Positions 6,219 through 52,600 of a stretch of DNA of 64,000 nucleotides are shown here, piece by piece; position 1 is the first letter of the stretch; the number at the start of each line of letters is the position of its first letter. Both the position numbers and the translations under genes were made by a program. Source of the DNA: Pecten maximus (Eukaryota); assembly GCF_902652985.1 (NCBI RefSeq), contig NC_047020.1:40176001-40240000 (forward strand), written 5' to 3'. Below the pieces are notes generated by a model. It had not been told where the DNA came from and ran no database searches. It saw nothing but the letters and a program-made list of their open reading frames with translations.

Positions 6219-7047
6219 TGTTTTTTCACAATTCTAGTTAAAATTGAATTCCTTGCAGAAATAATCTAACAAACCAATGAAAATGTCTTAACTAAAATGA
6301 TTGACTATTTTTGCTTTGACAAGGTCTCGCATCTGACATCAATGAACTGCACAAAACATTGCGTTGACCCGGCTTACAGTTGTCAGTCACCATAGTAACA
6401 GTCAAACGTCTTCATGGACACCCTGTCAAAAGGAGGAGATCGTCTCAGAAAACAGAAGATAAGATTTTTTATTCATTTTTTGTTTATATTACTGCAGTAA
6501 ATTAATTTAATTTTACTTTAATATCATTACTGAATATTGTTTGTAAATAATTCTACAAAAAAATTTCTGTTTTTTTATGTGGACTACAGACTAGTCACTG
6601 AATTATATTATTAGACTGCTGTGTAAATGGATGTCACATGATAAATATGTCTTATAACTTCAGTGATTTTTGTGATGCTGCCAAGAAGATCTCCATTTAA
6701 GACCATTTGACAAGGTTGCCATTTATAAAAATCAAGCATATTTAAATAATTGTTTTCATAATTTCATATATCCAGCTGGAATCCACAAAACTATGTATGT
6801 TTTTGACTCCCTAAGGACTGAAAAGTATTTTTGGACTTTTCCGTTTGAAGAGACATGCATGGCTGTTTGAGAATATGTTTTGAATCTTCAGATTTGATCA
6901 CTCCTGGGCAGTTTTAGCAAACGAGATCGTTAAAAATGTATACAACAATTTACTTGACCAATCTTTGTTAACAAAAGTGGTCAACACCTTTGATGTAATA
7001 TATAACCAATAAATTTAGATGGTGTTCACCATATACATTTTACTTAC

Positions 7048-17300: not shown

Positions 17301-20300
17301 TTAGTACCATTAGTAACATTAGTTTCATTGCAGATATCCTGAGTACATTACAAGTCACCTTATGACCTTGCCGTTGTCAGAGGAAGAGCGTTGGAAGAAG
17401 TCGAAATGTCTACTGTATCTTCACTACCTATTCACACTTAACAACCTCACCACGAAGGTCCTCACACAGAGAGGTAGGTATAACACACAACATCCGGGTA
17501 ATCGCACAGAGAGGTGGGTATAACACTCAACACCCGGGTCATCACACAGAGAGGTGGGTATAACACTCAACACCCGGGTCATCACACAGAGAGGTGGGTA
17601 TAACACTCAACACCAGGGTCATCACACAGAGAGGTGGGTATAACACTCGACACTCGGGTCATCACACAGAGAGGTGGGTATAACACACAACACCCGGGTC
17701 ATCACACAGAGAGGTGGGTATAACACACAACACCCGGGTCATCACACAGAGAGGTGGGTATAACACACAACACCCGGGTCATCACACAGAGAGGTGGGTA
17801 TAACACACAACACCCGGGTCATCACACAGAGAGGTGGGTATAACACACAACGCCTGGGTCATCACACAGAGAGGTAGGTATAACACATAACATCCGGGTC
17901 ATCACACAGAGAGGTGGGTATAACACTCAACATCCAGGTCATCACACAGAGAGGTGGGTATAACACTCGACACCCGGGTCATCACACAGAGAGGTGGGTA
18001 TAACACTCGACACTCGGGTCATCACACAGAGAGGTGGGTATAACACTCAACACCCGGGTCATCACACAGAGAGGTGGGTATAACACACAACACCCGGGTC
18101 ATCACACAGAGAGGTGGGTATAACACACAACATCTGGGTCATCACACAGAGAGGTGGGTATAACACACAACACCCGGGTCATCACACAGAGAGGTGGGTA
18201 TAACACACAACGCCTGGGTCATCAGACAGAGAGGTAGGTATAACACACAACATCCGGGTCATCACACAGAGAGGTGGGTATAACACTCGACACCCGGGTC
18301 ATCACACAGAGAGGTGGGTATAACACTCAACACCCGGGTCATCACACAGAGAGGTGGGTATAAAACACAACGTACACATAAATGGATGGAAGAATTCAAA
18401 GTGACTATTATATACCCGATTTAGTTTTCAGGGTATTCATAAACAATAGGTTCTGTGTCTTTTCCCTTTTGTAAATTGTAAATCTTTGAATGTTTCTAGT
18501 ATAATGACTGATTAATAAGCATTGTGATGATGTTTGTGATGCAGTGCCATTACCTGTCGAGTGGCCGGGAGTTGTAATTGAACAGCTACTGAATAGATTC
18601 ACTCTGAAGGTGGACTCCGGTGGCAGATTAAAAAGGTAAGCTGCAGGTTCTGGTGACTACATCATTGTTATACTCCCGTTGGCTGCCAGTCATGTGATGG
18701 TATATCCTGGTCCATTTCGTCAGTTCACTTTCCATGTCTTCACTCTCCTGACATGTGCGACTTTTGTACTTTACGGAGAGAGATTGTACCCTGGTATATG
18801 TATGGCCTGTTACCCAGCTCCCATTAAATCAAATTGATATAACTATATTTTTTATGTTAATGTTGCTGATTTCAGATAATTAATGGGCATTTGTTCTTTC
18901 TTTATGCCCAATTTTGTTTTATTTTGTTTACCCCCTTCAAACCTCAGATTTCCTTGTTTGATACAAAAACTTCTTTAAAATTTCATCCAGATTCACCAAA
19001 ACACTTACTGTAATTATGTGTCTTTATACTTACTGTAATTATGTGTCTTTAGAAGATTAAGTGTAGCTTACTTTAAAGCTAGTCAGTCTGACATATGACG
19101 TTATTGTGATTCTGTTCTGTTTCAGGTGCAGGCCAGCTCGGTTGAAGGACAAAACAATATCTTATATTTTGGTGCTGTGTCTCATGATAGATGAATTTGA
19201 AGTGGAAGTCACAGAATTGATGAAGGATTTAAAACACTCATTAGTCAGGTAGATAATCTTTTATCTTGAAAGGAAGATAAAAAAAAAAAAAAAAATCTAA
19301 ATAGGAGTTTAAAACTCTCCTTGGAGAAGGGAGATAAAGATAACTCTTTTATCTAGGCAACATAATGAAGGATTGAATCTCTTTCTGGAAAGGGAGATGA
19401 CTTTTATCTAGAACTCTACTTGGGAATGAAAATAACTCTTTCATCTAGGTAACTCTGTCTTGAAAGGAAGATAACAAAATTAAAACTCTCATTGGAGAAG
19501 CGAGATAACTCTTTTTATCTAGGCAACACAATTAATTAAGGATTGAATCTCTTTCTGGAAAGGGTGATAACTTTAATCTAGAACTCTACTTGGGAATGAA
19601 AATAACTCCTTCATCTAGGTAACACAACTAATGCAGGATTAAGTCTCTTTCTGGGAAGGGAGATAATTTTTATCTCAAGCGTGCTAATGAATGAGGATTT
19701 AAAACTCTACCTTGGAAGGGAAATAAAACTTTCATTTGGGTAACACAACTGAAGAAAGTTTAAATCTATTTCTGGTAAGGGAGATAATTTTCTTTTAGGT
19801 AGCACAACTGATGAAGCATTTGTCAGCTTTCAATCTCTTTCTGAGAAGGGAGATAATTCTTTGATAGAGGTGATACAGGCAATGAAGGATTAAAACTCTC
19901 CTTGAAGAGAGATAACAGTTTAAGAAACATCCTTTAATATTTTGTAATTCCAAGCATTCCATCGTATAAATCATCAACACATCTAGTCTGGTCCTGTAAT
20001 TACTATATTTTTATATATTAAAGTCCTTAGTTCAGACATCAGAAATATGCACAATTTCTATAGTTCAGACATCAGAAATATGCACAATTTCTATTGATGA
20101 AATCTATGTCCAAACGATGATTAAATGAGTGTTTGTGCCTACAAATAATGAAATTAACACCGAAATGTTCAGGAAAAAGGCGTATCATATTCAAATACCG
20201 TATGTCTTTGCGGTAATTAGTGATACTTCGGGTCGATTATAACTTTTACTACTTTAACTACTTTTACTAGTTTAATTTTGACTACCTAAACGTTATTCAA

Positions 20301-21763: not shown

Positions 21764-22276
21764 AAGCAGATTAAGTATACCCTCTTAAGATACTGAGGGG
21801 TACAAGCAGATTCAGTATACCCTCTTAGGATACTGAGGGGTACAAGCAGATTCAGTATACCCTCTTAAGATACTGAGGGGTACAGGCAGATTCAGTATAC
21901 CCTCTTAAGATACTGAGGGGTACAAGCAGATTAAGTTTACCCCTTACCCCTTAAGATACTGAGGGGTACAGGCAGATAAGATACTGAGGGGTACAAGCAG
22001 ATTAAGTTTACCCTCTTAAGATACTGAGGGGTACAGGCAGATTCAGTATACCCTCTTAAGATATTGAGGGGTACAAGCAGATTAAGTATACCCTCTTAAG
22101 ATACTGAGGGGTACAGGCAGATTAAGTTTACCCCTTAAGATACTGAGGGGTACAAGCAGATTAAGTATACCCTCTTAAGATACTGAGGGGTACAGGCAGA
22201 TTCAGTATACCCTCTTAAGATACTGAGGGGTACAAGCAGATTCAGTATACCCTCTAAAGACATTGAGGGGGTATAA
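21764..22276. repeat. Minisatellite, about 13 x 40 bp, hairpin-containing
   Basis: Unit AAGCAGATT(A/C)AGTATACCCTCTTAAGATACTGAGGGGTAC. Confidence 0.95.
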
Positions 22277-24133
22277 TTTAATGAGTTTAACGAAAGATGT
22301 GTAATCGGAACTGTCTTTCTAACCAAAAGTCATTAAACACACGGAGACCGGATGCAAAAAGAAGAAATATACCAGGTGTTCTGGTTCACAGACAAAAATT
22401 CAACCCTTGTAAATCTTGTTCGTGGTCAGGAGGTGACACCTATTGTTGTAATTGTGACATTTGAAACAGGCCCTGGGATATGTAACAGAATAAGCATATA
22501 ATGTAAATAGTGTAGGTCAGTGAAGTATTGGTGTTGGGATACCTCATTCAAATCATACGGAAGGCAAATGGTGATAAAATACTTTATATCCTGGAGTATT
22601 TGGAGAATATATGTGTAAAGAAATGTAAATAAAGTAAGAACTTGAGTATAGATTTATATGTTGACAAACAAGTTCTCTTCTATTACTTACTCGGGAAATG
22701 ATATTATCAGCCATTTAAGGGCAAGAGGAAACTCGGGCTATCAGCACTTCTATAGTGTCAATGTGATTACTCTTGCTCATCCAGGAAAAAAATTATACAA
22801 AAATTCAGGTTTCATAAAAAAAGTTATATTTTTTTTCTTAAACGAGCGTTATTTGTAAGGCGACCAATTACAGAAATCCCCCAAACTACCTTTGCAGTGG
22901 ATAGTGAAGCTTAAGAAACCACAATATCGTTCTTTAAGTCATGATGCCTTTAAACACCCATATTTCATCTAAATTTCCACCAGTCAGAATATAGCAAAAT
23001 CGCAGCTATTTTTCAAAATTATAACTCAAAGTTGTATTTGTTATACCATAAATCACCTACATATCAAATTTCATCAAAATCTGACAATCTACATTTTTGC
23101 CAATAAAAGGCTTCCACTTCATTACCATGGCAACTAATTTTTTTGAAACTCTTGCCATCTTGACCAGCATTCCTCAAAACCCTAGGTAAGAATTGTCGGC
23201 AAAATCATACATTTCATCTAAATTTTGATCAATCAGGCCTGATTTTCATTACCATGGCAACCAATATATTCGAAATTGTTGCTGTTGTTTTAGGCATCCT
23301 TCAAAACCATGTACCATTTCAGCAAAATCTTGAAATATTCGCACTGGAGTACGCCAATGCACTCCTAAGGTTGTCGACCTGTGTTAACGTTATGTAAAAT
23401 GTCCCATTGTTTTAAATAAATCATGTCTATTTACAATAAACATAAATTATAATATTCACCACTAAAACTGTCCTTCACTATTTCGTTTCTGTCCGATCCT
23501 GTAAATGGTCACCTGGTTCTCGGCGATACTAGCACCAACCTATCATTTAAAACATATTTTCTTTGTCGATCTCGCGAGTATACAAATCTCGAGTCACGGG
23601 TGCCGACTTTCGCATTTTAAATCATCAATACATATTTTCGTACTTGCAATAGCATAATTGTATCTGGAAGTTAGAGTGCATAGTTACAGTTGCCATTTTT
23701 AGTATATTTGCAATGTAACAGTTTTTCTCAGTTGAATCAACAGAATTGCATTGTTAGAATTTTGACCCCTTTGACCTTCCATATTTCTGTATTAGAGACA
23801 CTTCCGAATTAAACCTTAAGTAATTATGCCATGGACATATACCTAATATACAAGTCCGTGCTTATGCATAAATGGATGCTACTAGTTTTGTGTAAAGTGG
23901 TAAATAGCTATAATCATTGGAGCATGCCACGAATTCGTACGTGCCATCCTTAACCTAATTTGTTGTGTAGGTTCAGAAAATAACTTGTTACTCCAGTGTG
24001 TGGAAGGGGAAGCCAGAGGGCACAACAGCAGGTGAGTAAAGCCCCAAGACTAAAAGTTTGAATTTCGACATCGTAGATGAACTCAAAAGCACATAGGGTG
24101 TATCTAACAGTGTCTTCAGTAAAACCAAATATA

Positions 24134-24340
24134 CTGTAAACGTACTTATTTTAGCGCAATCAAATTTTAGCTCATTTGCAGATTTTAGCCAGTTAGCGCA
24201 ATGATGAATTAGCGCATCCACAGAACTTTCTATAGAAATAAAACGTACAAAAAGTAATTAGCGCAATCATAATTTAGCGCAAGGCTTCCAGCGCGCAAAG
24301 CGCTAAAATAAAATTACCGCTAAAATATGTACGTTTACAG
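24134..24340. mobile_element. Tc1/mariner-type MITE (degenerate relative at about 13222-13415)
   Basis: TIRs CTGTAAACGTAC...GTACGTTTACAG, TA on both flanks, internal TTAGCGCAA repeats. Confidence 0.8.
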
Positions 24341-24817
24341 TATTCGCGCAGCACAAGTGAAAATATATTTGGTATTACTGAAGATACTGTTAGATATTCT
24401 GTTTATTACATTTATATATAGCAAAATATTCCAGGTCAGTTTTTAATTTTCTTCAATGTCGTTTTAAGCAGTATTTTGATTGGTAAAATTATAAAAAAAA
24501 ATGTGATGTTTTTCGCTAGTGAAGAATATCGGAAAAATTGAAAACACGCAAGCTATTCTCAACAGTTTTTTTCTAGATCTTTTACGAAGTACCCCAATAT
24601 TAATACGTATTTATTATAGACCTAAATCGTAATATTATCCAAGTCATAAACAATATTTAGTGTGTCGAATATTAGCGACAGTTCAATTCCCGTCATTTTT
24701 GCTTTTATATATCTTACGATATCATGCACCTATAAAGTACTATTCTGGTCAATTTAACAGAAGTAGCATGATCTGTTGTATCTTGACTAACAATGGGACT
24801 TGTTGACACGTTATTTG

Positions 24818-25003
24818 TTTATCACTATCCGTCCACCTCTGGGTGGCGAGTTCGAAACCTACGTGGGGCAGTTGCCGGGTACTGACCGTAGGCCGGTGGT
24901 TTTTCTCCGGGTACTCTGGCTTTCCTGCTACTCCTCCAAACCTGGCACGTCCTTAAATGACCATGGCTGTTGATAGGACGTTAAACAAAATAAACCAAAC
25001 CAA
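24818..25003 (+). mobile_element. 5'-truncated copy of the same SINE
   Basis: Near-identical to 25405-25590. Confidence 0.85.
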
Positions 25004-25365
25004 AGTTAAGCTATTTGTGAATTTCGAAGCAAGCGAAAATTTATGTTTCAGGTGGACATAATTAGCTTATTTGTATCCCATATATTGCACAAAATAACTA
25101 TGCCGTTATACCCCAAAGTGCCTATAACACACAATAGGAGCATTGGTTTGACAGGATTTGACTTGATATATGTATAAACACTGATTATATTTTAACCCTG
25201 AAATGCAAATGGCGGTTGTGAATCATATCACACAAATTTGCTTTTATTAGACACTATTAAGAACTATGAATATGAAAAGAAGACTGGTTTTATGAACAAT
25301 TGTTCAACCGCTGATTTTGAGGTAATATATGCAAATATTTTTGAAAAAAGCCCCAAACTCCACAG

Positions 25366-25590
25366 GGGGCCGCGGTGGCCGAGTGGTTAAGGTGTCCCGA
25401 CACTTTATCACTAGCCCTCCACCTCTGGGTTGCAAGTTCGAAACCTACGTGGGGCAGTTACCAGGTACTGACCGTAGGCCGGTGGTTTTTCTCCGTGTAC
25501 TCCAGCTTTCCCCCACCTACAAAACCTGGCACGTCCTTAAATGACCATGGCTGTTAATAGGACGTTAAACAAAAAACAAACAAACCAAAC
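25366..25590 (+). mobile_element. Full-length tRNA-derived SINE with V-domain-like core
   Basis: GGGGCCGCGGTGGCCGAGTGG A box, GTTCGAAACC B box, GGTTTTTCTCCG(G/T)GTACTCC(A/G)GCTTTCC core, (AAAC/AAACC)n tail, and CCACAG repeated on both flanks. Confidence 0.85.
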
Positions 25591-27056
25591 CACAGTTTAA
25601 CTAATTGTCTTGAAATTATCCTTCTTACTTTGATAAGATGTTTAAGATTTTTAATGATTGAAAATCCCCTTTTATGCCATATTAGTGAAACTTTATTCTT
25701 AGCCGCCATTTGCATTTCAAGATCAAAACAAAATAAGTATATATACAATATGAACCTAAAGTCATATCCGGTCCATCAAATGCTCTTATTTTGTGCTATC
25801 CACACATGTGAGCATAATAGCATGCTTATTTTCAAGTTTGTCCATACTGCATTTTACCACAAAGTAACTCCACAGAAAAAAACTGTCGACATTTACAGCA
25901 AATTATTAATTATTTTGAGAAACTACGTGTCTAGTCCAACGTTTTGGTATATTACACATGACTGACTTTGTGCAAATTTGTAAGCATTTATTCGCTTTTA
26001 AAATTCAACATCATTCTCCTATACAGACGACCCTTAAATTGAACCCATTGACTGTGCTCTCTTGTATGAATTTGCATTTCAAACTGAGGTCACTCTTAAC
26101 ATATTTTCATCGTCCTCTCTCGACCATCTTCGTTAATTATCGAGTACATATAGTTCTGATACCTTAAATTCTTACCACTATTATCTATTGTTACGCTATT
26201 TAGTATTGTTTTCATTGTTGCGACTTTGTGACCTTACAACAACAATGGTCATAGAAGGACGGACTCCCATATATGCGAGAAGCATGCATGTGGCGAGTGC
26301 TAGTGTGTTTTGAACGGCTGACGTAAGCTCGTGTTTGTCTCCTTTTGCTAACGCGAAACTGATCCCGACTTTATAGTGCTACTTCACTGAAGTGTACTGC
26401 CGAATACACCCAGCAGGACATACTATACCGACAACGGAGAAACCATTCGCCCCGCTCCCGAAAATACTGAGCGGTAAGCAGGAGTAGTAAGTAGCAACTA
26501 CCATTTTATAGACTCTGGCATGTGTCGAAAAGGGGACAGAGCCCTAAGCTTTCCTCAAAAGGATGAACGCTCAACTAAAGGCTAAAGTGAGACAGCGCCA
26601 GGTGAGCAATTAGGAAGAATAAAGTTGCAAGAAAGAAGAGAAAAGATAGGATCACAACTTTGGTCGCCTGTTACGATCATGTAGTGGGGTCAACAGGTAC
26701 AATTGTTACAATTTTTCATAAATGTGAATGTGATATTCACATTTTATGACATAGTCCTGCTATCAAGTTAATTTCATTAGTTTAATGGTATACCCTGGAG
26801 CGTTTTTCATTTGCTGTACCAGTCAGAAATCCACTGTGACGTCATAATATAGACAATGGCGTGACGTCATAAATCGTAAATAGCAACAAAACAGTCGTCT
26901 CCGTTTGATGAAGCACTCCATATTTTGACGATAAACCCTGTAAAAATGAACTTTTCTGTATGTGATAAAAAGTATCTTAAGTTGTCGCCTCATTTGATTT
27001 TTAATTAGTACCTTTAAATATCAATATGTGAATATATACATTATATGACAATTAGT

Positions 27057-27770
27057 TTAGAACTCGTCAGTGATGCTAGGGACATCAGACAGCTGTAACG
27101 TCCATCTAGAACTCATCAGTAATGCTAGGACATCATACAGCTGCAGCGTCCTTCTAAAACTCGTCAGTGACGATAGGAACATCACCCAGTTATTTCGTCC
27201 TTCTAGGACTTGTCAGTGACGCTAGGGGCATCATACAGCTGTTTTGTACGTTTAGGACTCGTTAGGGATGTTAGGGACATCATACAGCTGTTTCATCCTT
27301 ATAAAACTCGCCAGTAACGCTAAAGACATCATACAGCTGTTTCATTCTTCTAGGACTCGTCAGTGATATAAGGGGCATCATACAGCTGTTTCGTCCTTCT
27401 AGGACTCGTCAGTGATAAATTATTAGTGACATCACACAGCTGTGTCGTCCTTTAGGAGCCGTCAGTGATGCTAGGGACATCATACAGCTGTTTCGTCTTT
27501 CTAGGACTCGTCAGTGATGATAGGGACATCATGCAGCTGTTTTGCCCTTTTTAGACTGTTCAATGGTGCTAAGGACATCGTACGGCTGTTTCGTCCTCTT
27601 ATGACTCGTCAGTTATGCTAGATATTTCATACAGCTGTTTTGCTCTTCTAAGACTGTTCAGCGATGCTAGGGACACCAAACAGTTGTTTTGCCCGTCTAC
27701 GACTGTTCAGTGATGCTAGAGACATCATACAACTGACATCATACAGCTGTTTCATCCATCTAAGTCAGTG
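27057..27770 (-). ncRNA. Tandem array of about 14 x 49-bp units, each a minimal type I hammerhead ribozyme motif
   Basis: Minus-strand consensus gcauca-CUGACGA-GUCC(uagaa)GGAC-GAAAC-AGCU-GUA|ugaugu has the complete hammerhead core, stems I and II and a palindromic stem III. The best-preserved units are 27376-27416 and 27478-27519. Confidence 0.85.
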
Positions 27771-28213
27771 ATTCTTTGAAGCAAAAATGAGTTTCAAACA
27801 TTGTAACGTTAATTTAACACCAATTTATATATATGCCTTTACATGTATTCATATCAAATACTTTTGCAACTCTTCTTCAGAGATCGTAAACAAGGCCTCC
27901 ATATAGACAATACACCTAGAGAGGTCATATAGACACATACATATATGTTTGGAGTCAGAGGTGATTTTTACTAACAGAAACCATTTCAGAGGTGTTTTTG
28001 ACTAATAGAGACCGCTTCAGAGATGTCTTTTGATTAACTGAGATCGTGTTAGAGGTGTTTTTGACTAATAGAGACCGCTTCAGAGATGCCTTTTGATTAG
28101 CCGAGACCGTAGTTTTAGTGGTGTTCTTTATTTCGAATTAACAAGTGTTCTTTATTCAGTGACAAAGTCGGCTTGAGGAGAAAATGTATTAATTTTGTCC
28201 ATCATTATTACAG

Positions 28214-31200
28214 ATGGAAATGGAAACCTATGCCTCTCTGAACAATGGACATCGAATTCCCCTTGTAGCCCTAGGAACATCGCGGGTACGTATGATTGTT
28301 ATGGCAATAGGACAATAGCACGTGCAACTATATATAGACATGGATTTTATATGGGTCAAAAAAGTCAGATAAACGGTAATTATCCGGATAACAGTAGGTC
28401 CTTGCAAACGTATGCCAGCAGGATATGAATTTCTTGAAATGTTAAGGTGAGGTAAAGAAGTACAGTCAAACCTGCCTTAGCGACCATTTCTTGACTCCCT
28501 TGGAAGGTCACATATGACAGGTTTGACTGTAATTCCAACTGTGTGGACAATGAACAATGTCACTCTTTCGAGGCCATCCGCCCCTTTATCAAGACACAAA
28601 GAATACAATCACATGGTATATAAACATTCATATATATATTGCATATTTGTCATGTGACAATGTTTCAGGGGGAGTCGCGCATATTTTTTGTTTTATATTT
28701 CTAATTATATTATGCAAGACTTCCCAGATTCATGTATCATAAAGACACGACATGTGCAGTTACAGGTAGCGTTCATTTAAATTCACTTGTTGAAGTGCTT
28801 TAGGTTTTCCGGTGTCATTGTGTGGTTTCTCATACTCTGTAATGATTACGTATGCACATGTTGAAAAACAGTTTCTAAATGCACTACCACTAGCTGAACA
28901 TTTAATGTGCACTGTATGTATGCCTTCTATTTGAACGCATCAGAAGATCTTTTTTAAAGTATGACCATATGAATGTAGTGTTGTAAAGTTAAGAAATGAT
29001 TAACTATCGTGAATGTTTCTGTGAAATATACCGAAATTGTTTGCAATTGTTAAGTAAACTTGTTTAAATCAAACGATTACCGATTGGATGATGTAAATAT
29101 TTTTCTCTAACGATTCTGATCAATTCAAGATGTAACAAGTCATTTGATTGGTTGATCCTATTATTGCGCGGCGGTGAACATTGCATTTATCAGTATATAT
29201 GTATCGACCAATCAGAAAAAGACAAAATTCTCAGCGATTATACTGCATCTCCATATCAGTTATAACGCTTAAAGATATTGTTTGCTGCATTTTACATTCA
29301 TAACAAATGTGATAAAAATTATTTATTAATCTACAGATTCCAGAAGAAAAAACGGAAGCATGTATAAAGCTGGCACTAGAAATGAGTTATCGCCACATTG
29401 ATACTGCATTTCACTATGGAAACGAGGTCGCCATAGGAAAATCGCTTAAAGAGTATTTAGAAAGCACTGGTGTGAAGCGAGAGGATGTCTTCATAACCAC
29501 TAAAGTATGGGTTGTCATTAATATCTTGGATCACCATAATATTAAGTTTAGATTTTTAAATTATAATTATTCCAGATTATTAATACTGACAGATATTATG
29601 ATTTCAATTATATTCAAAATCCTCTTATGAATATTTAATCTGCACTGTTCCAAATCAGTGAGAACGGCTACTTTTACATCCGCCGAAATTTATTCAACAA
29701 AAGTGAAAAGCACTATGAATTACATCCGCCAAAATTTCGTTAACAAAATTTTAGTGAAAGCACTGTAAATTAAATCCTCCAAAATTTCTTACAACGTCTA
29801 AAAATTGTTCCTTGTTGCAGCTGGATGCTATGTTCATGGAAGAAGATACTGTAGTACCAGCAATAGACGAAAGCTTGAGGAGGTTGAACCTGGAGTATGT
29901 CGATCTCTTCCTTATACACGGCCCATGTGCGATGAAGGTAAGGCATTGGAGAATATCAGAGGTTCAGTTCACTTTGAATACAATTTGCACAAATTAATGG
30001 AAACATATGTTGACTAGCTACATTTACTTAATATGGAAGTTTACTGTGGTAAATGCGTATTGCTTAATCTTTATTTAACACTTTATCACTATGATATTAA
30101 AAAAATAAAAGAAGTACTCTGATGCACATCGTAGGAACAGCGGTCAGCTTAACAGAGCAGCCAATTTCAAATAAATCGGGAAAATTGAATACATACAGTA
30201 AACAAAATAGTTCGGAAAGAAAACAATGCAATCAATATGTTAAAGATATTCGTTAGAATATTTAGACATTGCTGTTTATTTTTTTTGAATTATCAATTCA
30301 TCATTAATGTATTTTTTCTTTGATCGTATTGTATAAAATCATAATTTTACCACCGCGTATTTATTCTATGAAAAAGTGGGTAACGAGGCCATCCGATGTC
30401 GATGCGCAAGCCTAATCACAGTACGTAAAATTGATAGCATTGGGCCTGATCAGCTTCATCTAGTGGAAATGCAATTCAAGTGTAAATAGCGTTTTGGTGC
30501 CGTATCGATAGTTCGAGGCCCCGTCAACGATGGATATGTTCACATATAAAAATTACCCTATTTTCTCGCCTTTGTCACGTGTTTTTCCTCCTGTATGATA
30601 TTTGAAGAATAAAGAAAACTTGTAAAAGTCTGAAGTATTACTGGTATTTTTTCTTCGTTTGACAGACTCTGGATTATTTTCCTGAAAAAGCCCCGCTGAC
30701 CACGGAGTATATGCCGATTGATCTGAGAGAAACTTGGAAGGTACCATTTCTAGATCCGTTGACTTTTCTCCACATTGTACATGTAATTCAAACATAGCAG
30801 TGTCAATGATTACAAATAGTTAAAAGACAGACCGAAACAACATGTGATGCTTTTTACGACAAAATCATATAAGGGAATTGCGTTGTTTGTATGCATGTTT
30901 GTTATTTCATTGTCAAGATGTACAGAGCAAATCATTGCCACTCATAGTCATTGGAAATGAGCTATAACATGCTCTGTACTTCAAGTGTTATCAACTTGGT
31001 TATAATTGGCATACAAACTTGACGATTGGTCTGACTATTGTTCACCACAACAAAGTATTTTTAATTAAGATATANNNNNNNNNNNNNNNNNNNNNNNNNN
31101 NNNNNNNNNNNNNNNNNNNNNNNNNNNNNNNNNNNNNNNNNNNNNNNNNNNNNNNNNNNNNNNNNNNNNNNNNNNNNNNNNNNNNNNNNNNNNNNNNNNN

Positions 31201-34200
31201 NNNNNNNNNNNNNNNNNNNNNNNNNNNNNNNNNNNNNNNNNNNNNNNNNNNNNNNNNNNNNNNNNNNNCATTTTGAGGTTGATCGCAAAATTAAGGTATG
31301 AACTTAATTTTGATATTTTTGAATTAAGGGAATGGAAGAAACTGTATATAAAGGAAAGGCTAGATCAATTGGCGTGTCGAACTTCAATTCCAAACAGTTG
31401 GAATACATTTGTGAGACAGCACGTATTCGACCAGCCGTCAATCAGGTAGTAATATTGATAAGACAAGACAACAAAGTCATTTTTTCGTTATGTATTTCTT
31501 TTCGTTTTCATTGAGAAGTGAAACCATTCCTCTAAATCGTTATAAAATTTATTATACATATTTTGGCCAATTCTAATTCCACTCTTTTCGTCTTTAGCAT
31601 CACTGACGAGTCCTTAAATGATGAAACAGCTGTATGATGAAGATTTATCCCTATCAATACACTTATAGTGCATATATATTACAAAATTCATATTGAAAGA
31701 TGCTCTTCACGTTTCTGTTCTAATAATTATTTTCTTTTAATTAAGTTATACCTTTAATTAAAAAGGATCACCTATGACGTTTATTGGTTAAGTTCAATTG
31801 AAATGTTTGACCATATATACTATACGTAATTTTATATATCTTAGAAAAGGACAATGTCGCTGTAGGTCCCAAATGTTGTATTGTACACTCAAATACACAT
31901 TCGATTGATTTTCAGGTTGAAGTTCACGCTAGATTTCCGCAGAAGAAACTCCATGACTTTTGTAAATCTAAGAATATTCAACTTGAAGCATATAGTCCTT
32001 TAGGTTCACCGTATTTCAAAGGACCGGATGCACTCAAGTAACTATCATCAACATGTTACACAATATTCTATTGTTTATCTCGATGGGTTATATAGACGTA
32101 GATAATATCTATATTTATCATGTACTTATTTATACTGTATCGTGTGATGTGTTGGCTCGTGGGGAATGTAAATATATTTACAACGATACTATTCTTACAC
32201 TTAATTACAGAGTCGGATTCCTGACTATCCGGAATCGAGTATAAACTAATACACAAATGAAATATTTCCTAAATTATACGGTCATATACGGTACAATACG
32301 CATAATATGTATGCTTCTCACACTGACATGTCCTCTATGATACAAAAGGGCGGTCAGACCAGGCGTCCCGGTAGGGTAAGTGTCCTCTGCGACATCGACG
32401 AATGTTATGCAAAGTCTTCAAAGTGAGAACCAGGGTTGTGACAATCGAACTACCAGGCATGTCAACAAACATCTAATACATCTAACTTGATATCACAAAC
32501 GGATATAACATATGTCCTATGATATCACGATGTCAACAATAAAACTTCCCCATAGAAACGTAATTCATACTGTACCCGCTTTCCGGAACACTCCTAGACC
32601 TGTACAAAAAAGAAATAAATCACGTTAAAGGCAAGGTTACGATTGATGTTTTTCATCTCTTTCGTCTCAGGTTTGTCTTGATATGGGGACAATTAGGCCA
32701 TAAACGGTGTTATCTTTAAATAGTGTTATGCAGGTTGTGAGATGTAAATGTGGCCATACTAAAGGTTATGACGCTGATGGAAATGTGGTGATGGAGTTTT
32801 AGTTTCATCATATATTGATTAAAAAGTAAAAGTGTGTTTTATGTCTTTTTAGCCGCGTGAAAGCCTCTGATAATTTGGTGGATCATCCTGTTATCGTCAG
32901 CATCGCCGAGAAGTACAATCGTACTGCAGGACAAGTGAGTATTAAACACACAGGGATCAAAGAAAAGCACCATGTTGCAGCTGCATTCAATGAAACGGGT
33001 GTTCATAATCGTGTCATCACGTGACGTGACGGAAACTCCCGAATGATTTCCGGGGTGCCGTTTGTCGCGCGACGTAATCGGTAACGACAAAAATACACAC
33101 TGTGCCAACATAAATCAATAATCAACCATTTTTAATGTTCATGAACAAATTAACTTTCAATAGAACTTGAGTTGTTGAACTGAAAGTAAATTAAATTTGA
33201 AATATAAATGTAATTCAGTTGCCGGCATATATGATGACAGTTTTAGGATATCGCATTCGTAGACAGCTTGTTTGCTTGCATATCACTAAAATATATACTA
33301 TTAGAGGTATATATTTTATTTATTTATTATACATTAATTTCAACATATTTTTGAGTAGAATATTTGAAAAACAAAACCAATTAGCCATATAAGCTTTTCA
33401 TTTATAGTACATATGTTTCATCTTAAAACTTTGTTTTCATAATTTTGATTTTCGTTTTAGGTTCTTCTACGGAACCTTGTCCAAAGAGGTATAGTTGTGA
33501 CCCCAAAGTCTGAAAATCCGAAGAGGTTGAAAGAAAATATTGAGGTAACAGACATTCAAACATTCAGGGATTTAGAAGTAAATGATGGGTGTGGACCATT
33601 GACCTTAACTAATTGTTTTCTGGCGTGTGCAATTTCTTGTTATTCTCTCGACATTTTGTCTTATGTCTATTTATGGATTATACAGCAATTACAAGTACAG
33701 ATTGATGTAATATGTTCTTTATGTAACATTAAGTTATTTTTTTTCCAGATTTTCTCATTCTCTCTGGACGAGGAAGATATGAAAAAGATAGATGGACTAG
33801 ACAATGGAATTCGTCGCTTCTGTCTGTCATAGTAAGATATCCATCCATTCAAGTACAATGTATATTGCATGTCTAAATATTTATGATGTATTGCTTGTCT
33901 TTGGTGGGTTTTTATGTATTGTATGTCTTGTGTAAATGATTTTTAAAATTAATAAAATAAAATAATATTAAAAAGAAAAGATATCCATCATCGAATTAGA
34001 GGATTTAAGAGCAAACCTAACATACCTATACTTATAGGGACCACGGAACCAAATGATTTCCCATAGACGGTAATGTTAACGTTTATCACTGTACTGCTTA
34101 AATGGAGTTTTCAACACTGGTCTAGTAGCAATAATTTTAAAGTATGTCATCTCGGAAACCTCTAAATGGAATTATAAAAAAATCTACCAATTTGAACTTT

Positions 34201-34756
34201 TTTAATATGGGGGCCGCCATCTTGTATTGAAATCAGCACCAAAAATTCATCTAAATTAACAACAAAATACGCACTTACTTACCTCCCCCTGACAAAAACA
34301 GGCTAGCAAAAAAATAACTGTTTTTCTATATATTTTACATCTATATGTATTGCCCGACCCACATATTAAAACTTTGGAACTTCTCTCACCTTAATATCCA
34401 ATCAGTAGGCCCCGATGTATTCACCTTCCTTTTAAATCTTCTGCCCAAACGGGGAAAACCCACATTCTATTTTTGATTTGGTTCTGTGGTCCCTATACAC
34501 AAAGGTCAGATGCACTGTTCGAATATATATTCATCCTCATGTCGACAGGGTTCACAAGGGGAATATATGTATATCTAGTGAATATATTCGTTTGTGAATC
34601 CCACGGCTAGGACAACAATAAAATAAAAAGGGGAGTGGCGTTACCGGTTCATTATAAATATAAAGAACAAAATATTCTTATTCTTCTACATAATTATGTA
34701 TTCTTATTATTTGCAGCTACGACGGACACCCTGACCATCCTTTTGAACAATTGTGA
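28214..34756 (+). CDS. Aldo-keto reductase family 1-like protein, 10 coding exons, 319 aa
   Basis: Exons 28214-28285, 29337-29504, 29821-29937, 30666-30740, 31329-31445, 31916-32037, 32853-32934, 33461-33544, 33749-33831, 34717-34756, phase-consistent (960 nt). Motifs [75 protein letters not shown] and HPDHPF. The ATG directly follows an acceptor, so an upstream exon exists. Confidence 0.93.
28463..28529. mobile_element. 67-bp minimal MITE (same TIR begins a longer relic at about 3035)
   Basis: CAGTCAAACCTG...CAGGTTTGACTG with TA flanks. Confidence 0.75.
31075..31268. other. Assembly gap (N run), within AKR intron 4
   Basis: Run of n. Confidence 1.
31598..31639 (+). ncRNA. Solitary minimal type I hammerhead ribozyme motif in AKR intron 5
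   Basis: catca-CTGACGA-GTC(cttaaat)GAT-GAAAC-AGCT-GTA|tgatg. Same family as the 27 kb array, in the opposite orientation. Confidence 0.75.
34037..34493. mobile_element. MITE in AKR intron 9
   Basis: TIRs GGGACCACGGAACCAAAT...ATTTGGTTCTGTGGTCCC with TA flanks. Confidence 0.8.
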
Positions 34757-38462: not shown

Positions 38463-41412
38463 ATGGTTTCAAAAGTAGGTATATTTTGCTTGTATATTGT
38501 TTACTTGCGTCTTTAAGTAGTGCATTCTGTTATATCAATCCTAAAACAGTGTTTGATTTAGTATAATCGATCAGACATACGTGTTTTTTGTTTATCTGTT
38601 TTTTTTTCAGCAATAGATCCTTTGGATTGATTTGATTGCTGATAAGGATTTGTTTACATATGATTTTACTTAAAGTTATGAATCAATGGACATCCCCAGT
38701 AGAATTTTTGGGATGGTAGGTTTTTTAATTCAAGGGACAATAAAGTGACCCAAATTGATATGAATTCCCCATTATAGGGTGTTAATCCCCATACAAATTA
38801 TGATGATCATGAGAAAATAGTATTCAGACATTTTAAAGTGTTGAACACTTTTGGTGTCGTTTATTCGATTTTTATTTTAATTCCAATTTTGAAAAATCCG
38901 AATTTTTTTAATTGATACAATATGTGCTAAATTATAAAAATGCTTTCCTTGCATTTTTATCCTCAATTTTTCATCAGTTTAAGACAGTTTAAATCAACAT
39001 AATCTCATAATAGTATGTTTTGAATATAGAAGTTTCGTTGTATATCAGTGTAAATTCTTCACGTATATATATATATAATTTGTTTGTTTTTAATGTCCTA
39101 TCAACACCCAGGGTCATTATATAAATGATTCATGGATTCTACATTTGAATGTAGATCCTGATAATATCAAGCATACATTAGACAAATTCAAGTTGAAATG
39201 TTGACTAGATTGACTATTTAAATATCCAGAAACAGGCATATTATCAGAAATTTAAAAGATAACAAATTTTGACCTAAGCATTTATCTAACCCACAACTTA
39301 TATTAAAAGACGTTACAACATTGTTTGTCTTTTGTATTATCATTTAAAAAAAAAGTTTTGATATTCTCTGTACACAATGATATCGAATTAATGAATTGAG
39401 TCATATTCTACGGAAGTCTATTTGTGTCAAATTGATAAAAATTTAATTGTTGGTTACTCGTTACATCGGGAAAAACGAAACAAAATACGTATTCACGCGA
39501 ATATTTGCGTTTTACGTAGAAAAAGATGTAATAACAAGAAAAACGCGTATATACGCGAAAATAAACGTAAATACGAAAAACACGCCAAAAAAACCCCCAA
39601 AAAAAACAAAAACAAAAAAACCCCTCACACGAACGCAAATCAAAACACGTAAATATTGATTTTTCCTCTTTGTTTTTCACAGGTCAGAAGGTATATCGTG
39701 ATAATTTTTGGATTGGGAAGTATATTGACTTTCCAAATTTTCTTTCAATTCCAATGCATGAAATCACCAGACTATCGCTGGTCTGAAATCTGCAACACGC
39801 CAGACTCAGAGAAAGTGGATATTTCATCAATACAAATAAACGTGTCAAACATCCCTCGACAGATATTTGATGTAGCAATGTATCTCAAAAGCGCGAGGAT
39901 ACACGCACGGGGATCTAAAACACAAAGGGCATTAAAATATGCAAGTGAACACATGGACGCAATACTGAAAGGATTTGGAACCTCCTTTGAAGACGTCACA
40001 AAACGGAAAGTATATGAACCCAGTAGTATGTGTCCCGAGTATCACGATGATAAAATTAATCGTTACAGAATCAGAGAATGTTCCCATGCCAAGCCTCTAG
40101 AAGAGATAGTCACAATTATTCGTCTTGACCATGGCTCATCTACAGACAAAGTGTTATTAAAGATACGTACGATAGAAACATCCCAATGATAGTTGGTGAC
40201 TACGATGGGAATGTTAAGGAAAAGAGTAATGTACGTGTAAAGCACATGGCATCTACGACAACAGAAGGGGATGCATTGAATACATTAATGGAAGAAGTGA
40301 AAACCGAATATACATTGGTTTTAAGAAATGTGACGGAATTGGATTCAAATGCACAAATCGAACGACTTGTGCGTGAGATTGAGAGTCTAAATGTTAACGC
40401 AGTAGGCGGGGCTATCAGAAACTCTGATAATATTTGGAGGTTAGGTTGTCATCAGAGAGTGTTCCGGAACTACACATTGGTATACGAGGAAGGATATGAT
40501 GAGTCAATGCACGACTGTGTGTTTTGTGATCACGTGGACGGACCATTTCTGATAAAAACCAAAATATTAAAAACAATCAAATTTGATAGTATTTTGACAC
40601 CAATGGGATTGTACGAGGACTTCTTCATGAGACTTAATACGGAAGTTGCTATCTGTCCTGACGCCTTGTTTGATATGGATTTTCCACGCCGTAGTGAGCT
40701 GACAAAAGACTGGGAGAAGTTTGGACGAAAACGGAATCTTTACAAGTTAAAGTTTTCTTTTGGACTAACAATACATTTTGGATGCAATTACGCGTATCCA
40801 TGCGAAAGAATAAAAGGATTTATTAGATCACCGTGCTGTATTCAGGAATTGGCAGATTTAATTTATGGTTTCATGGACATGTGTGAAAAGGTGAAAGGAT
40901 CGTGTCAGTTGAATTGTGGAACTGTCCTTGGAACAGTGAAAATGTATAATGCGATTCCATGGGAAGAAGACGCAGATCTCAACTTTAGGTGTCATGACTT
41001 CACAAAATTGAAAAATGCCTCATCAAAACTGAGTTCCAGTGGCATACGGGTCGGAGTGGAACATTTAAGTAATTGTACTCCAACTGCTATTCCGGCACAA
41101 TTAGGTGCAAGGTCCAAACACTGGCATGCGGATATCTGGTCACGTTATACGATGGAATCCTACGAAGTAAGATCTAAACATCGAAATTTTACCAGAATTC
41201 CATTTAATGGACGTTTAGTACACGGAATGAGAAACCCAGTGTTATTTACACGTATTTCGTATTCAGATATCTTCATGCATCAACAGCATTTCAGAGAAGT
41301 TGGATTTGGGAGGGTTAAACAATTTTCAAAGTGTCCGAAAGTAAACGGTCATGACTGCATAGACAATTACTATGAAGATGGAAATATTCAGTTCCGTGAC
41401 CCGGTGGCATAA
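38463..41412 (+). CDS. Fukutin-related protein-like / LicD-family phosphotransferase, type II membrane protein, interrupted by one frameshift
   Basis: Micro-exon 38463-38474 (MVSK then gtaggt) splices to the acceptor before 39683 (VRRYIVIIFGLGSILTFQIFF, a signal anchor). The second ORF has FKRP-like motifs CDHVDGPFL, TPMGLYEDFF, SPCCIQELADL and the LicD signature GTVLGTVK...IPWEEDADL. ORFs 39656-40189 and 40186-41412 are offset by -1. It may be a pseudogene or an assembly error. Confidence 0.8.
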
Positions 41413-49600: not shown

Positions 49601-52600
49601 TGTATTATAAAGATATTTATCTAAACTGTTTTCAAGAGAACTGCGTATTATTTAGAAATAAAATTTAGATAAGGCCTTGGTAGATTTCAGCTAGAGTACT
49701 AACTCCGACTGCCAATGCACACTCAATATAATGAACCAATTGCCTCATTAAAATTCACTAGGGAACAGAAGATTACAGCATAAACCTTCCATTATATATC
49801 GCGCTGATAACAGTCTGGATCAATATTTCACTTCAATATAATTTATGATTTGTTGAAACTGTATTTTATACAATGTAAGTTTAACACCTCAGTAAGAAAC
49901 GAGTGCTAGGTACTTATATAGATTCGTCTCCTTCTGTCTTTTGTTTATTTTACGATTAACTGATATGATACTGAAAGTTTGTTCCTTTTAAACCCGATAT
50001 ATTTCCGACCGTTTTATGCGATACAAAAAAACGTAGGATGTGAAACCCACAGTATATGCTGAATTTATCGATCTTAAACCCATGAAAATGATTTCACTCA
50101 TAATAAACGCGGTAAATATGCTTACTAATTATCACATTCTTCACAGAGCAATCCCGTGGTTGTAAGTATTGCATAATTCTATCTCATACTCGTCAGGACA
50201 GGTTACACTCGCTACGACCTATTTACAATTGCCTGACGTCATCATTTCATGTAGTATCACCACGTCACGATTTGATAACGTCATCAATTTTGGCGCACAG
50301 TTTCATTGGAAATTGAAGATGCTGAGATGAAAAAGACCCCAAACACCTTACAATTTGTTCCTTTTTAAGGAATAGTATGTGAAAAAAATAATCAAGCATG
50401 GGCCTGTACAGGGATGTCTCAACCCAAGTGTAAGTTTGGCTGGAATGCACTCGGCAAGCCTCGTGCAGACCAGCAAAACCCTTGGGGTGAGATATTTTTG
50501 TCCACGGCACAGCCCCATGTAAGAATTTTTTTATTAATCTAAGATGTTCTTATCATTGTAGTTTTACTCTGCTTCTCCAAAGCTTACATTATATGGGAGT
50601 TCGACATCTAAAGGGATAACTTTTTATTTTTTTTATTTAAGAGGAAAGCTTTTAAATTGATTGTATTCAAAGGGATAACATTTAACTTGATTGTGTTTAT
50701 GGCATAACATTGAAAGTATTTTATTGAAAGGGCTAATATTTAACATTACTGAATCTAACGTTTTAAAGGTGATTTATATAACAGGAAATATTAATCGTGT
50801 TTGTATTTAATGGGATATAATTGATTATGATTGTATTTAAAGGGACAACATTTATCGTGATAATTTAAAGGGGGTAACATTGATCATGATTGTATTAAAA
50901 CTGGTAACATTAACTTGTTTAGGTAAATGTCTAGCTTTGAAATTTTGATTAACCCTTTAACACTTGTTTTAATTAAATTTATATTACAAGGGATAAGATG
51001 TTCATCCTTTCGCAATATTTAGAATAGCTATTGGAGAGGACTAACTTACATTTACAACATTCGTATCTCGACCCTTTAACAGTCAGGACTCTTTCCTTAT
51101 TGCTTATGGCTAAATTACTTAACATATTACATGATAGCCGTCATATACTATCCAATTTGGGTAAAGTATCTTTCCTAAGGACACAGCCACAGCATAACAG
51201 GATGGTCCCTGATCTCAGCTTTAATAAAAAAAAAACTCAAATTGGTTCGGGTAGAGGTCGAACATTCAATAAGATTTACCTAAGATTTTCGATCCTTTAC
51301 CGACTTGCCATGTCTGCCCGCTTGCCTATTGCAAAGTTTCCACCATTGTGCAATCCTGAAACTTTGATGCAGTTATTCGTACATATCTTTTGTTATTTAT
51401 ATTTGAAAATTTCTGTTTACCTTTCTCTCCAGAAAAGCATCTGTGTTGATAATGCCATGGAGTAACGAAGAACGAAATCAGAGGTTTTCTGAGTTAAAAG
51501 TCCGGAGGGATGAAGACTTAGTATCAACAATATTTAACGTCAAGATTCAAGAAATAGAACAAAAAAAGAACGAAGAATCTGAGTCAGCTACAGAAAGGAC
51601 ACTTAATGATGAAACTGAAGAGACACCAGTTAGATCTGTGCGGTTTCAATACAACTCACGAGGACTCGAGGAAACTGCTTGTATTCATTCTGAAGTTGAT
51701 AGTACTGACGATGAGAAAACTGTTGACTACATTACATTGTCACTAGAAGTGGAAATCGCCAAAAACCTCGTGATTTACACTTTTCACCAATACAACGGAA
51801 GGGAGTGGACCAAATCAGAAATAGAACAGAAGGTTTGTATGAATATAAATTCCGCATAGACAATAAGTGACCTTTGTAATAGGCAGAGTATATGACGACT
51901 AATGAATGTTATTATACCTCATGTTTGTAAAAGTGTTATTCATTATTTGGATTACATCACATGATAGAGAGACAATCATCGAATCTCATCCGAGGGAAAT
52001 CCAACCTTTGATTTCCCTCGGATCTTTGTCGCCATGGCCATCTTCCGTCATATTTGTTCGCGTCTCCTTACCGGTTGTTTACAAATGGTAAGCAAGCACA
52101 AACACAAGGGTTTCCATTCAGTCGAAGAAGAAGAAAAATATAAAATAAGAATGCTTAAAACAAGCAGAAATCAACACATTTATTGGTCAACTAGGGTGAA
52201 TTGGTAGGGTTCCGACTTTTCAATTGAGTTACTTAGATGCAGCTCTCAAACCAAATTTTTGACACGGTGAAGTGAGTTTTTTTTAACGAGAATGTGTTCG
52301 TTTGGTTTGTGCTCTTGCGGTGTTATAAACAATTTATGTCCCTATTTGCAGGGTATATGAAGGTTTATTTACCCATAGGGAAAAAAACTGACCCTTACTG
52401 CAAAACCGACCCTTACAGCTTTTTAGTCTTTCAAGAACAAATCAGTTATGCTTGAGTACACAAGACGATTTATCGTTCCTGCGCTTTCGATCAGTCTGAT
52501 GTAATTTTACAAGGAAGAAAACACTCTTGTTCGTATGTTGAGTTCTTTAATCACAAGAGTTTGTTTGATTTTACGCTTATATTTTGGCGTTAAACGTCCT

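What the first reader, a model, noticed from the sequence alone, without database searches (positions are those of the whole stretch)
31598..31639. Solo hammerhead of the same family in sense orientation inside AKR intron 5
Seen: CATCA-CTGACGA-GTC(7 nt)GAT-GAAAC-AGCT-GTA|TGATG on the plus strand, about 150 nt after the exon 5 donor. The core is intact and stem II is weakened by a G-U pair. The AKR pre-mRNA therefore contains a sense hammerhead, and probably also its complement if the upstream array lies in the first intron. Inference: as a lone minimal motif it should need a partner in trans (a second pre-mRNA or an array transcript pairing through ACAGCUGU), which would make cleavage concentration-dependent. 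Pairing with the complementary array in cis could silence it.
Basis: partly seen in the sequence, partly recalled or inferred. Interest (0 to 1): 0.7.

Follow-up and report, generated by a model that had tools for sequence, protein, structure and literature searches.

The report
Decayed retrozyme copy in an intron
The hammerhead-shaped RNA motif in this gene's intron is real, but it is part of a worn-down copy of a likely once-mobile repeat of about 400 bases whose motif occurs over a thousand times in the genome, and it is predicted to be too weakened to cut the gene's RNA, so it is likely an ordinary passenger and not a gene switch.

Summary
Observation confirmed: a type I hammerhead with intact core lies sense at 31598-31639 in AKR intron 31446-31915, which is spliced out in contigs of two runs. 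It is not a lone motif. It sits in a 146-bp remnant (31565-31710) of an old dispersed repeat with a monomer of about 390-400 bp: spacer, head, hammerhead, tail. The repeat occurs partly head-to-tail, so it fits non-LTR retrozymes, likely mobilised by Penelope enzymes. The 49-bp arrays are expansions of its hammerhead unit (1,364 strict matches, control 0). Single-unit copies are the commonest form and decay almost evenly: 1 of 32 keeps an intact core. This copy's four changes all hit stem-loop II. Trans-cleavage is geometrically possible, since a partner's core would cut the intron's intact substrate half, but predicted affinity is 30-100 micromolar or weaker. None of 14 AKR paralog loci shows the repeat at this position. 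Cleavage itself is untested. Verdict: new member of a known kind, likely inert. The scan reported similar decayed intronic hammerhead repeats in other genomes.

The parts
31598..31639 (+). Type I hammerhead motif, core intact; four changes against the family's modal unit at 31615, 31616, 31619, 31622, all in stem-loop II
31634..31635 (+). Predicted cleavage site after GUA (untested)
   Evidence: hammerhead NUH rule (established knowledge)
31610..31622 (+). Stem-loop II: 3 bp with closing G-U; predicted +1.9 kcal/mol against -3.2 for the modal unit
31626..31633 (+). 8-nt palindrome ACAGCTGT: 2-bp stem III plus tetraloop in a monomer, 8-bp intermolecular stem III in a dimer
31565..31710 (+). Remnant of the ~400-bp repeat monomer: ~33 bp of head, hammerhead unit, ~70 bp of tail (profile positions 130-270 of 294)
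31446..31915 (+). Host intron (470 nt, GT..AG) after the fifth coding exon
   Evidence: joint in X6 and X11
28214..33833 (+). Aldo-keto reductase coding region, nine coding exons, 306 aa; junctions of exons 1-6 seen in contigs, later ones inferred from GT/AG and frame
27058..27786 (-). 49-bp tandem array of the same hammerhead unit, antisense to AKR; 4 of 14 scored units keep an intact core; head and tail not detected
52411..52454 (-). Weak, heavily decayed family unit (E 0.07)
55544..55603 (+). Weak, heavily decayed family unit (E 0.12)

Best explanation
The motif is the hammerhead part of a truncated, mutated copy of an old dispersed repeat of about 390-400 bp, likely a non-LTR retrozyme copied by a Penelope-type reverse transcriptase, and in this intron it is predicted to be nearly inactive, so the AKR pre-mRNA is likely spliced without being cut. 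Shown: the repeat's layout (spacer ~110 bp, head ~165 bp, 42-nt hammerhead, tail ~90 bp), partial head-to-tail copies, a shared 3' end, a hammerhead unit present in 1 to 30 copies, near-even decay of single-unit copies, and splicing of the intron. Inferred: in the active ancestor, transcription through two monomers let the hammerheads release a ~400-nt RNA that could circularise and be reverse-transcribed; copies landed at random, one here in sense orientation; later mutation, including CpG decay at C11.1, weakened stem II and stem I; in some copies the 49-bp hammerhead-plus-linker segment expanded as a DNA minisatellite, giving arrays such as 27058-27786.
For: Profile hit extends on both sides of the motif, and a tail stretch is 21 of 22 identical to another dispersed copy. 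1,012 candidate places for a single-unit copy, 40 scored. Of 55 loci picked by head or tail alone, 32 had one unit, 9 more than one, 14 none detectable; 1 of 32 single units had an intact core; mismatches 16% in core against 20% elsewhere, Fisher p=0.09. Outside core and stem I, this copy has 4 changes in 20 sites, the family rate (P=0.55). Of 27 loci picked by the spacer, 12 had the tail just before it, 21 the head just after, 7 both. A different 48-bp segment of the same repeat also forms a minisatellite, so expansion is not tied to the ribozyme. Stem I pair probabilities 0.00 in 3 of 3 intron contexts. 0 of 14 paralog loci carry the repeat near this exon. The same core and palindrome, with compensatory stem I changes, occur in metagenome contigs, in two cases beside Penelope-like coding sequence.
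Against: No cleavage assay and no raw RNA reads; contigs cannot show RNA ends. This copy's unit (90% to the profile majority) is better kept than its head (66%) and tail (60%), and among flank-picked single copies units (79%) also exceed the unselected flank (63-64%); detection bias, subfamily spread in the flanks or gene conversion from arrays can explain this, but selection is not excluded. All 22 core and stem I sites intact has a neutral chance of about 1% per copy, though the finding was picked for that. The copy is present in 2 of 2 other DNA samples laid. No cognate Penelope ORF was found beside any own-genome copy, no target-site duplications (5 of 54 at 8 nt or more, control 4%) and no long array of the full monomer. 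Folding models omit Mg2+ and tertiary contacts, so only comparisons between copies are meaningful.
Confidence: 0.8

Rival explanations
1. Slow cis self-cleavage as a monomer: the copy still cuts a small fraction of pre-mRNA or excised lariat, with little or no effect on the gene.
For: Core and GUA site intact. A hammerhead with 2-bp helix III and a weak helix II cleaved 22% in one hour as a monomer, and a mussel retrozyme lacking most tertiary nucleotides cleaved at about 0.1 per minute (PMC7229834).
Against: Stem II predicted unstable on its own; the active fold is about 4-fold rarer than for the modal unit in isolation and about 3,000-fold rarer again in 121-nt context. Spliced mRNA is present. 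8 of 9 predicted frog retrozyme dimers did not cleave in vitro (bioRxiv 10.64898/2026.07.22.740005).
Confidence: 0.09
2. One reading: the intron copy is cut in trans by another pre-mRNA or by array RNA pairing through the palindrome, making cleavage depend on concentration and tuning AKR output.
For: In the best predicted heterodimer with a modal unit the junction that cuts the intron strand is formed, using the partner's strong stem II. The substrate half is exact here but in only 1 of 32 flank-picked single copies. Tandem family units appear in contigs of both RNA-guess runs.
Against: Predicted Kd 3e-5 to 1e-4 M with free single units, 6e-4 to 4e-3 M with the 49-nt product, 0.06 M or weaker with two- or three-unit RNA (37 C); nuclear RNA levels are far lower (general knowledge). 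Natural hammerheads are described as acting in cis (PMC6155905). 235 element ends in the genome carry the same exact substrate half, so it is not special to AKR.
Confidence: 0.04
3. The motif matters as an inverted repeat, not as a ribozyme: it pairs with the antisense array upstream of the start codon, looping out coding exons 1-5 and promoting back-splicing or A-to-I editing.
For: 11 of the 15 inverted repeats of 25 nt or more in 23000-34500 are array-versus-motif pairs, up to 50 nt at 86%; duplex about -61 kcal/mol. Exons 1-5 total 549 nt, in frame, with no stop around the circle. Inverted repeats of 30-40 nt can suffice for circularisation (PMC4201285, abstract).
Against: The array is not shown to be in the transcript; arms are 3.9-4.5 kb apart; no joint from 31445 back to 28214 among the joints listed (11 were not shown); phase-0 exons are a feature of the gene regardless.
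Confidence: 0.05
4. The repeat is a DNA-mobilised non-autonomous element with internal tandem repeats, and the hammerhead is an inherited passenger of it.
For: Head, variable tandem core and tail resemble bivalve Helentron/MITE-like elements (recalled, not tested against a library); no TSD or Penelope ORF found.
Against: No exact inverted repeat of 7 nt or more in the 294-bp majority sequence and no terminal complementarity above shuffles; circularly permuted head-to-tail copies fit retrozyme or Penelope tandems.
Confidence: 0.02

Closest known systems
Metazoan non-LTR retrozymes (Cervera and de la Pena 2020, PMC7229834; parts 2-4 of 6 read, supplement not readable; Li et al. 2026, bioRxiv 10.64898/2026.07.22.740005, parts 1-3 of 5 read)
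   Same: Type I hammerhead with 2-bp helix III and tetraloop in a non-coding, AT-rich monomer of 150-450 bp (here ~390-400; mussel 350-390); head-to-tail copies; dispersed monomers, over 40% of them intronic in Xenopus; Penelope elements in the same genome.
   Different: Family is old (copies 72-86% alike); only partial dimers seen; the long tandems are 49-bp arrays of the hammerhead itself inside the monomer (shortest family consensus in Li et al.: 51 bp); cut site GUA and 5-nt loop II, against GUC and 6-nt loop II in the metagenome relatives; no circRNA data.
Hammerheads in pseudo-LTRs of Penelope-like elements (Cervera and de la Pena 2014, PMC4209133, parts 1-2 of 4 read; Craig et al. 2021, PMC8557442, passages)
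   Same: Type I, palindromic loop III, most copies solitary and truncated, shared 3' end, partial tandems, dimer geometry.
   Different: Helix II is 4 bp with no extra nucleotide after A9, unlike min-HHR (6-8 bp plus bulge); no RT or GIY-YIG sequence beside any own-genome copy; the young Penelope family found in this genome does not match the repeat.
Newt, axolotl and viroid double hammerheads (via PMC6155905 and PMC7229834; Lunse et al. 2017 not held, title only)
   Same: Adjacent units can swap stem III through a palindrome; two array units form the inner active junction with predicted share 0.23-0.53.
   Different: Those dimers form in cis in tandem RNA; the intron copy has no sense neighbour.
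Conserved intronic hammerheads of amniotes (RECK and others; PMC6155905, passages)
   Same: Sense type I hammerhead in an intron, derived from a retroelement.
   Different: Those are conserved across species; this one is mutated in stem II, absent from paralogs and of unknown presence in other species.

Membership tests
Type I hammerhead ribozyme | Core C3-A9, G12-A14, A15.1-U16.1 and NUH site | tested here: met
   11 core sites and GUA intact
Type I hammerhead ribozyme | Three helices, open at helix I | tested here: met
   5-bp stem I, 3-bp stem II, 2-bp stem III; stem I shows 16 two-sided changes across 11 aligned relatives, 0 of 500 shuffles as high (core, stem II and palindrome were fixed by the search pattern, so only stem I is informative)
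Type I hammerhead ribozyme | G10.1-C11.1 pair | tested here: not met
   G-U here; a common decay variant, 9 of the first 100 listed strict matches and 3 of 32 single copies
Type I hammerhead ribozyme | Loop I - loop II tertiary contact | tested here: inconclusive
   Relatives have TAC before a 6-bp stem I and a 6-nt loop II; this family has TAA/TAG and a 5-nt loop; this copy has two changes in that loop
Type I hammerhead ribozyme | Self-cleavage | not testable with these tools
   Only contigs were available
Non-LTR retrozyme | One type I hammerhead per monomer of 150-450 bp | tested here: met
   294-bp profile plus ~110-bp spacer; tail-to-tail distances 349-395 bp in five loci
Non-LTR retrozyme | Head-to-tail tandem copies | tested here: met
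   7 of 27 spacer-picked loci show tail-spacer-head; partial dimers only, no long arrays of the monomer among fetched loci
Non-LTR retrozyme | No coding capacity, no LTR structure | tested here: met
   No Penelope protein match at family loci apart from an unrelated insert in one query; no terminal repeats
Non-LTR retrozyme | Target-site duplications (when present) | tested here: inconclusive
   5 of 54 at 8 nt or more against 4% in mismatched controls; copies are old and 5' ends uncertain
Non-LTR retrozyme | Expression as linear and circular monomer RNA | not testable with these tools
   Family units appear in RNA-guess contigs, strand and form unknown
Penelope pseudo-LTR | Adjacent RT plus GIY-YIG ORF | tested here: not met
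   None beside own-genome copies, +-1.5 to 5 kb; seen beside related motifs in metagenome loci L231 (tblastn to Penelope RT 3e-23; Pfam RVT_1 E 0.007) and L233 (read by eye, no Pfam hit)
Penelope pseudo-LTR | Shared 3' end, variable 5' truncation, partial tandems | tested here: met
   44 of 60 head-unit-tail hits end at profile 290-293, starts spread over 0-150; partly biased by tail-based picking
min-HHR (Cervera and de la Pena 2014) | Long helix II with an unpaired nucleotide between 9 and 10.1; little or no helix III | tested here: not met
   4-bp helix II, no extra nucleotide, 2-bp helix III with tetraloop
Domesticated intronic hammerhead | Conserved at the orthologous intron across species | not testable with these tools
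   No related genomes held; paralogs 0 of 14, with the whole intron covered in 7 and the first 1.5 kb in the other 7

The most novel reading that the evidence does not exclude
The 49-bp all-hammerhead arrays act as trans-acting ribozymes. Array RNA, or its 49-nt products, pairs 8+5 bp with the intact substrate half left in intronic single copies such as this one and cuts host pre-mRNAs, with the antisense array in the same AKR transcript as a protective decoy. This would be a natural, genome-wide trans-hammerhead network with at least 235 exact target halves at element ends.
Probability: 0.03. Interest if true: 0.85.

Novelty: new member of a known kind. Interest (0 to 1): 0.2.

Why it matters
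As it most likely stands, it matters little: an intact-looking intronic hammerhead is expected now and then from a repeat with over a thousand copies. The family is of modest interest to the retrozyme field because it shows a ~400-bp monomer giving rise to arrays made only of the ribozyme (49-bp period, up to 30 units), where neighbours are predicted to complete each other in cis. If trans-cleavage of host pre-mRNA were real, it would be the first natural trans-acting hammerhead that I know of and a new route by which repeats affect gene expression.

Tried and rejected
1) A young Penelope family near one array (L066; 287 candidates, 40 scored at 93-98% identity) looked by eye to share words with the head, but the repeat profile gave no hit on its 3' end at E<1 and it has no canonical hammerhead there: rejected as the partner. 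2) Tail-only search with the window's own tail found only itself, so no subfamily consensus could be built. 3) TSD and inverted-repeat tests were negative. 4) Core-versus-stem counts over 77 array units were not used, because two long arrays dominate them. 5) Depth over the motif in DNA runs was about 2,000 times flank depth; the tool says this is no copy number, so it is not used as one. 6) No RNA-guess contig covered the unique parts of the intron; this is no evidence of absence. 9) Literature: 'hammerhead + tandem repeat + bivalve + satellite DNA' gave 0 papers; 'hammerhead + scallop + Penelope' gave 2 unrelated papers; 3 of 5 of 'hammerhead, minisatellite, tandem array, mollusc, retrozyme' gave 18, 15 listed, none about such arrays by title or abstract start. 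The taxon words were my guess and come from no call. Lunse et al. 2017 was not held, and the supplement of PMC7229834, which shows mussel hammerheads and tandem minimal hammerheads in axolotl Penelope elements, could not be read; either may already describe this family or such arrays. 10) No measured rate for a G10.1-U11.1 pair was found.

Full report
1. Observation. The sequence is as described: stem I CATCA/TGATG, core CTGACGA and GAAA, stem II GTC/GAT around a 7-nt loop, ACAGCTGT, and GTA with a predicted cut at 31634/31635. It starts 152 nt after the donor at 31445/31446. One contig in each of two RNA-guess runs from different studies joins exons across 31446-31915 and across the four upstream introns, so spliced mRNA is likely made (that these runs are RNA is the tool's guess). 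Two exons match PF00248 and the nine exons give a 306-aa frame. Both contigs stop aligning at 28214, right after an AG, and carry 30 and 296 further nt that do not lie in 28150-28213. So a 5' exon exists upstream. The next gene upstream has its last Pfam-matched exon at 19139-19240. The array at 27058-27786 is therefore probably in a 5'-UTR intron and antisense; this is inference.

2. What it belongs to. A strict pattern finds 1,364 exact matches in the 918-Mb genome, 714 forward and 650 reverse, control 0. In 47 fetched loci plus the window, clusters held 1 to 30 units and shared 5' and 3' flanks (these loci were chosen through the hammerhead). A single-unit copy used as query gave 1,012 candidates, 40 scored. 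A profile from 27 of 30 such copies (three left out as arrays or duplications) is 294 bp long and matches the window at 31565-31710 with E 2e-14. Tail and head are joined in some loci by a shared ~110-bp spacer; a spacer profile also hit 6 non-training loci just before a head and 2 just after a tail. Of 27 loci picked by the spacer alone (30 fetched; the query and two overlapping loci dropped), 12 had the tail before it, 21 the head after it and 7 both. The monomer is thus about 390-400 bp, occurs as partial head-to-tail copies and has one hammerhead. The 49-bp arrays repeat the hammerhead plus a 7-nt linker inside this monomer. A 48-bp piece of the spacer forms its own minisatellite elsewhere, which points to ordinary DNA-level expansion. 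The animal is probably a mollusc; that is my impression and no call tested it.

3. Is the solo state special? No. Among 55 loci picked by head only (26) or tail only (29), 32 had one unit, 9 several and 14 none above threshold. Of the 32, one kept the full core. Mismatch rates were 16% core, 22% stem I, 19% stem II, 19% loop II and 22% stem III; core against the rest p=0.09. G12, which lies in a CpG, differed in 41%. A third sample picked by the spacer gave 2 intact of 17, several poorly aligned. At 19% per site, an intact 12-site core is expected in 8% of copies and intact core plus stem I in 1%. The window copy has four changes, all in stem-loop II: two in the loop, one that breaks the fourth pair and one CpG change that gives G10.1-U11.1. 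That is 4 of the 20 sites not used to spot it, the family rate. Against this reading, units are better kept than flanks, here (90% against 66% and 60%; random baseline 47% and 52%) and in the flank-picked set (79% against 63-64%). I put this down to detection bias, subfamily spread and possible conversion from arrays, but I did not separate these from selection. The copy is spanned by a contig in one other DNA sample and covered by two barely overlapping contigs in another, and no empty-site joint is among those listed. No paralog locus (0 of 14) has the repeat near this exon.

4. Mechanism. Folding (ViennaRNA, no Mg2+ or tertiary terms, so comparative only): stem II alone +1.9 kcal/mol against -3.2 for the modal unit; active fold +1.6 against -4.4; stem I pairing 0.00 in three intron contexts. 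Two adjacent array units form the inner junction, with stem III swapped through the palindrome, in a predicted 23% (37 C) to 53% (15 C) of molecules; Rfam sees the same fold as a weak type III hit across two units. But estimated dissociation constants are 3e-5 to 1e-4 M for free single units and 0.06 M or weaker for array RNA. Pairing with the antisense array would be far stronger (about -61 kcal/mol) if both are in one RNA. The likely outcome is little or no cutting before the 470-nt intron is removed. Shown: layout, copy structure, decay, splicing. Inferred: retrotransposition by Penelope enzymes, activity of the ancestor, inactivity of this copy.

5. Relatives elsewhere. Among 99 distinct matches, 95 have GUC and 87 a 6-nt loop II, and 47 form a 6-bp stem I. 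In 11 hand-picked sequences, stem I shows 16 two-sided changes, above all 500 shuffles (relatedness inflates such counts). In L231 a 734-aa Penelope-like RT frame ends 486 nt before the motif, and in L233 the motif precedes what I read as truncated RT and GIY-YIG pieces. In the own genome no such frame lay beside a family copy, and the one young Penelope family found does not match.

6. Comparison with what is known. Non-LTR retrozymes are 150-450-bp repeats with type I hammerheads; invertebrate ones can cleave as monomers, and axolotl Penelope elements carry minimal hammerheads in tandem (PMC7229834, parts 2-4 of 6; PMC7761336, passages). Dispersed monomers, intronic copies and families as short as 51 bp are reported, and derivation from Penelope ends is proposed (bioRxiv 10.64898/2026.07.22.740005, parts 1-3 of 5). 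Solitary Penelope-type hammerheads are common; a single one was inactive in vitro and dimers weak (PMC4209133, parts 1-2 of 4; PMC6765202, passages). I file the repeat as a new, old member of the non-LTR retrozyme kind, with expression and TSDs unproven. It fails the strict min-HHR definition, and conservation like that of domesticated intronic hammerheads could not be tested. I found no paper on this family or on its 49-bp arrays, but one key paper and one supplement were not readable. Earlier notes of this scan describe similar decayed intronic hammerhead repeats in other genomes; they were read after my own reading was set and are not evidence.

7. Verdict. Real motif, ordinary origin, likely inert. 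Interest 0.2. The boldest reading left open, trans-cleavage of host pre-mRNA by array RNA, has about 3% probability and can be tested cheaply in vitro.

Noticed in passing
window 28214-31445 with 27058-27786 and 31590-31639: Coding exons 1-5 are all phase 0, total 549 nt and have no stop around a circle; the antisense array and sense motif flank them as inverted repeats (back-splice geometry). No RNA support.
   Followed up: partly
window 23971-24031 (+): Candidate 5'-UTR exon of AKR (AG before, CAG|GTGAGT after), with a TCTCGCGAG promoter-like word near 23570 (motif recalled); unverified.
   Followed up: no
run X11, record 3: A 128-nt contig matches 31595-31638 with no differences but has other flanks and spans the predicted cut site; another copy or allele, unexplained.
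   Followed up: no
L349 (G000:C14 ~3055400-3057320): 48-bp minisatellite made from the spacer of the same repeat, without any hammerhead.
   Followed up: partly
L066 7400-9900 (-), L124-L137: Young Penelope-like family (RT PF00078, GIY-YIG PF01541), 93-98% identical copies, inverted 5' repeat, no canonical hammerhead found near its 3' end.
   Followed up: partly
L193-L312 (metagenome contigs): At least 120 stretches carry the same core and palindrome with GUC site, 6-bp covarying stem I and 6-nt loop II; several distinct flank families; L231 and L233 lie beside Penelope-like coding sequence.
   Followed up: partly
window 12039-19240 (+), 4689-6233 (-), 40129-41412 (+): Neighbours: RNA polymerase I A49-like gene (PF06870 exons), ankyrin-repeat ORF, fukutin-related-like ORF (weak).
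   Followed up: no
window 11944-12016 (+): tRNA-like hit (Rfam 36 bits) just upstream of the first A49-like exon match.
   Followed up: no
window 39281-39342 (+) and 57662-57757 (+): Weak matches to the tail (E 0.03) and spacer (E 0.003) of the same repeat.
   Followed up: no
window 15271-15650, 17457-18371, 21764-22270, 47471-49452: Other tandem repeats (54, 40, 40 and 157 bp periods) with no strict hammerhead pattern.
   Followed up: no
G000:C6 ~25.02-25.07 Mb (L314-L317, L319): Cluster of five close AKR paralogs, about 15 Mb from the window.
   Followed up: partly
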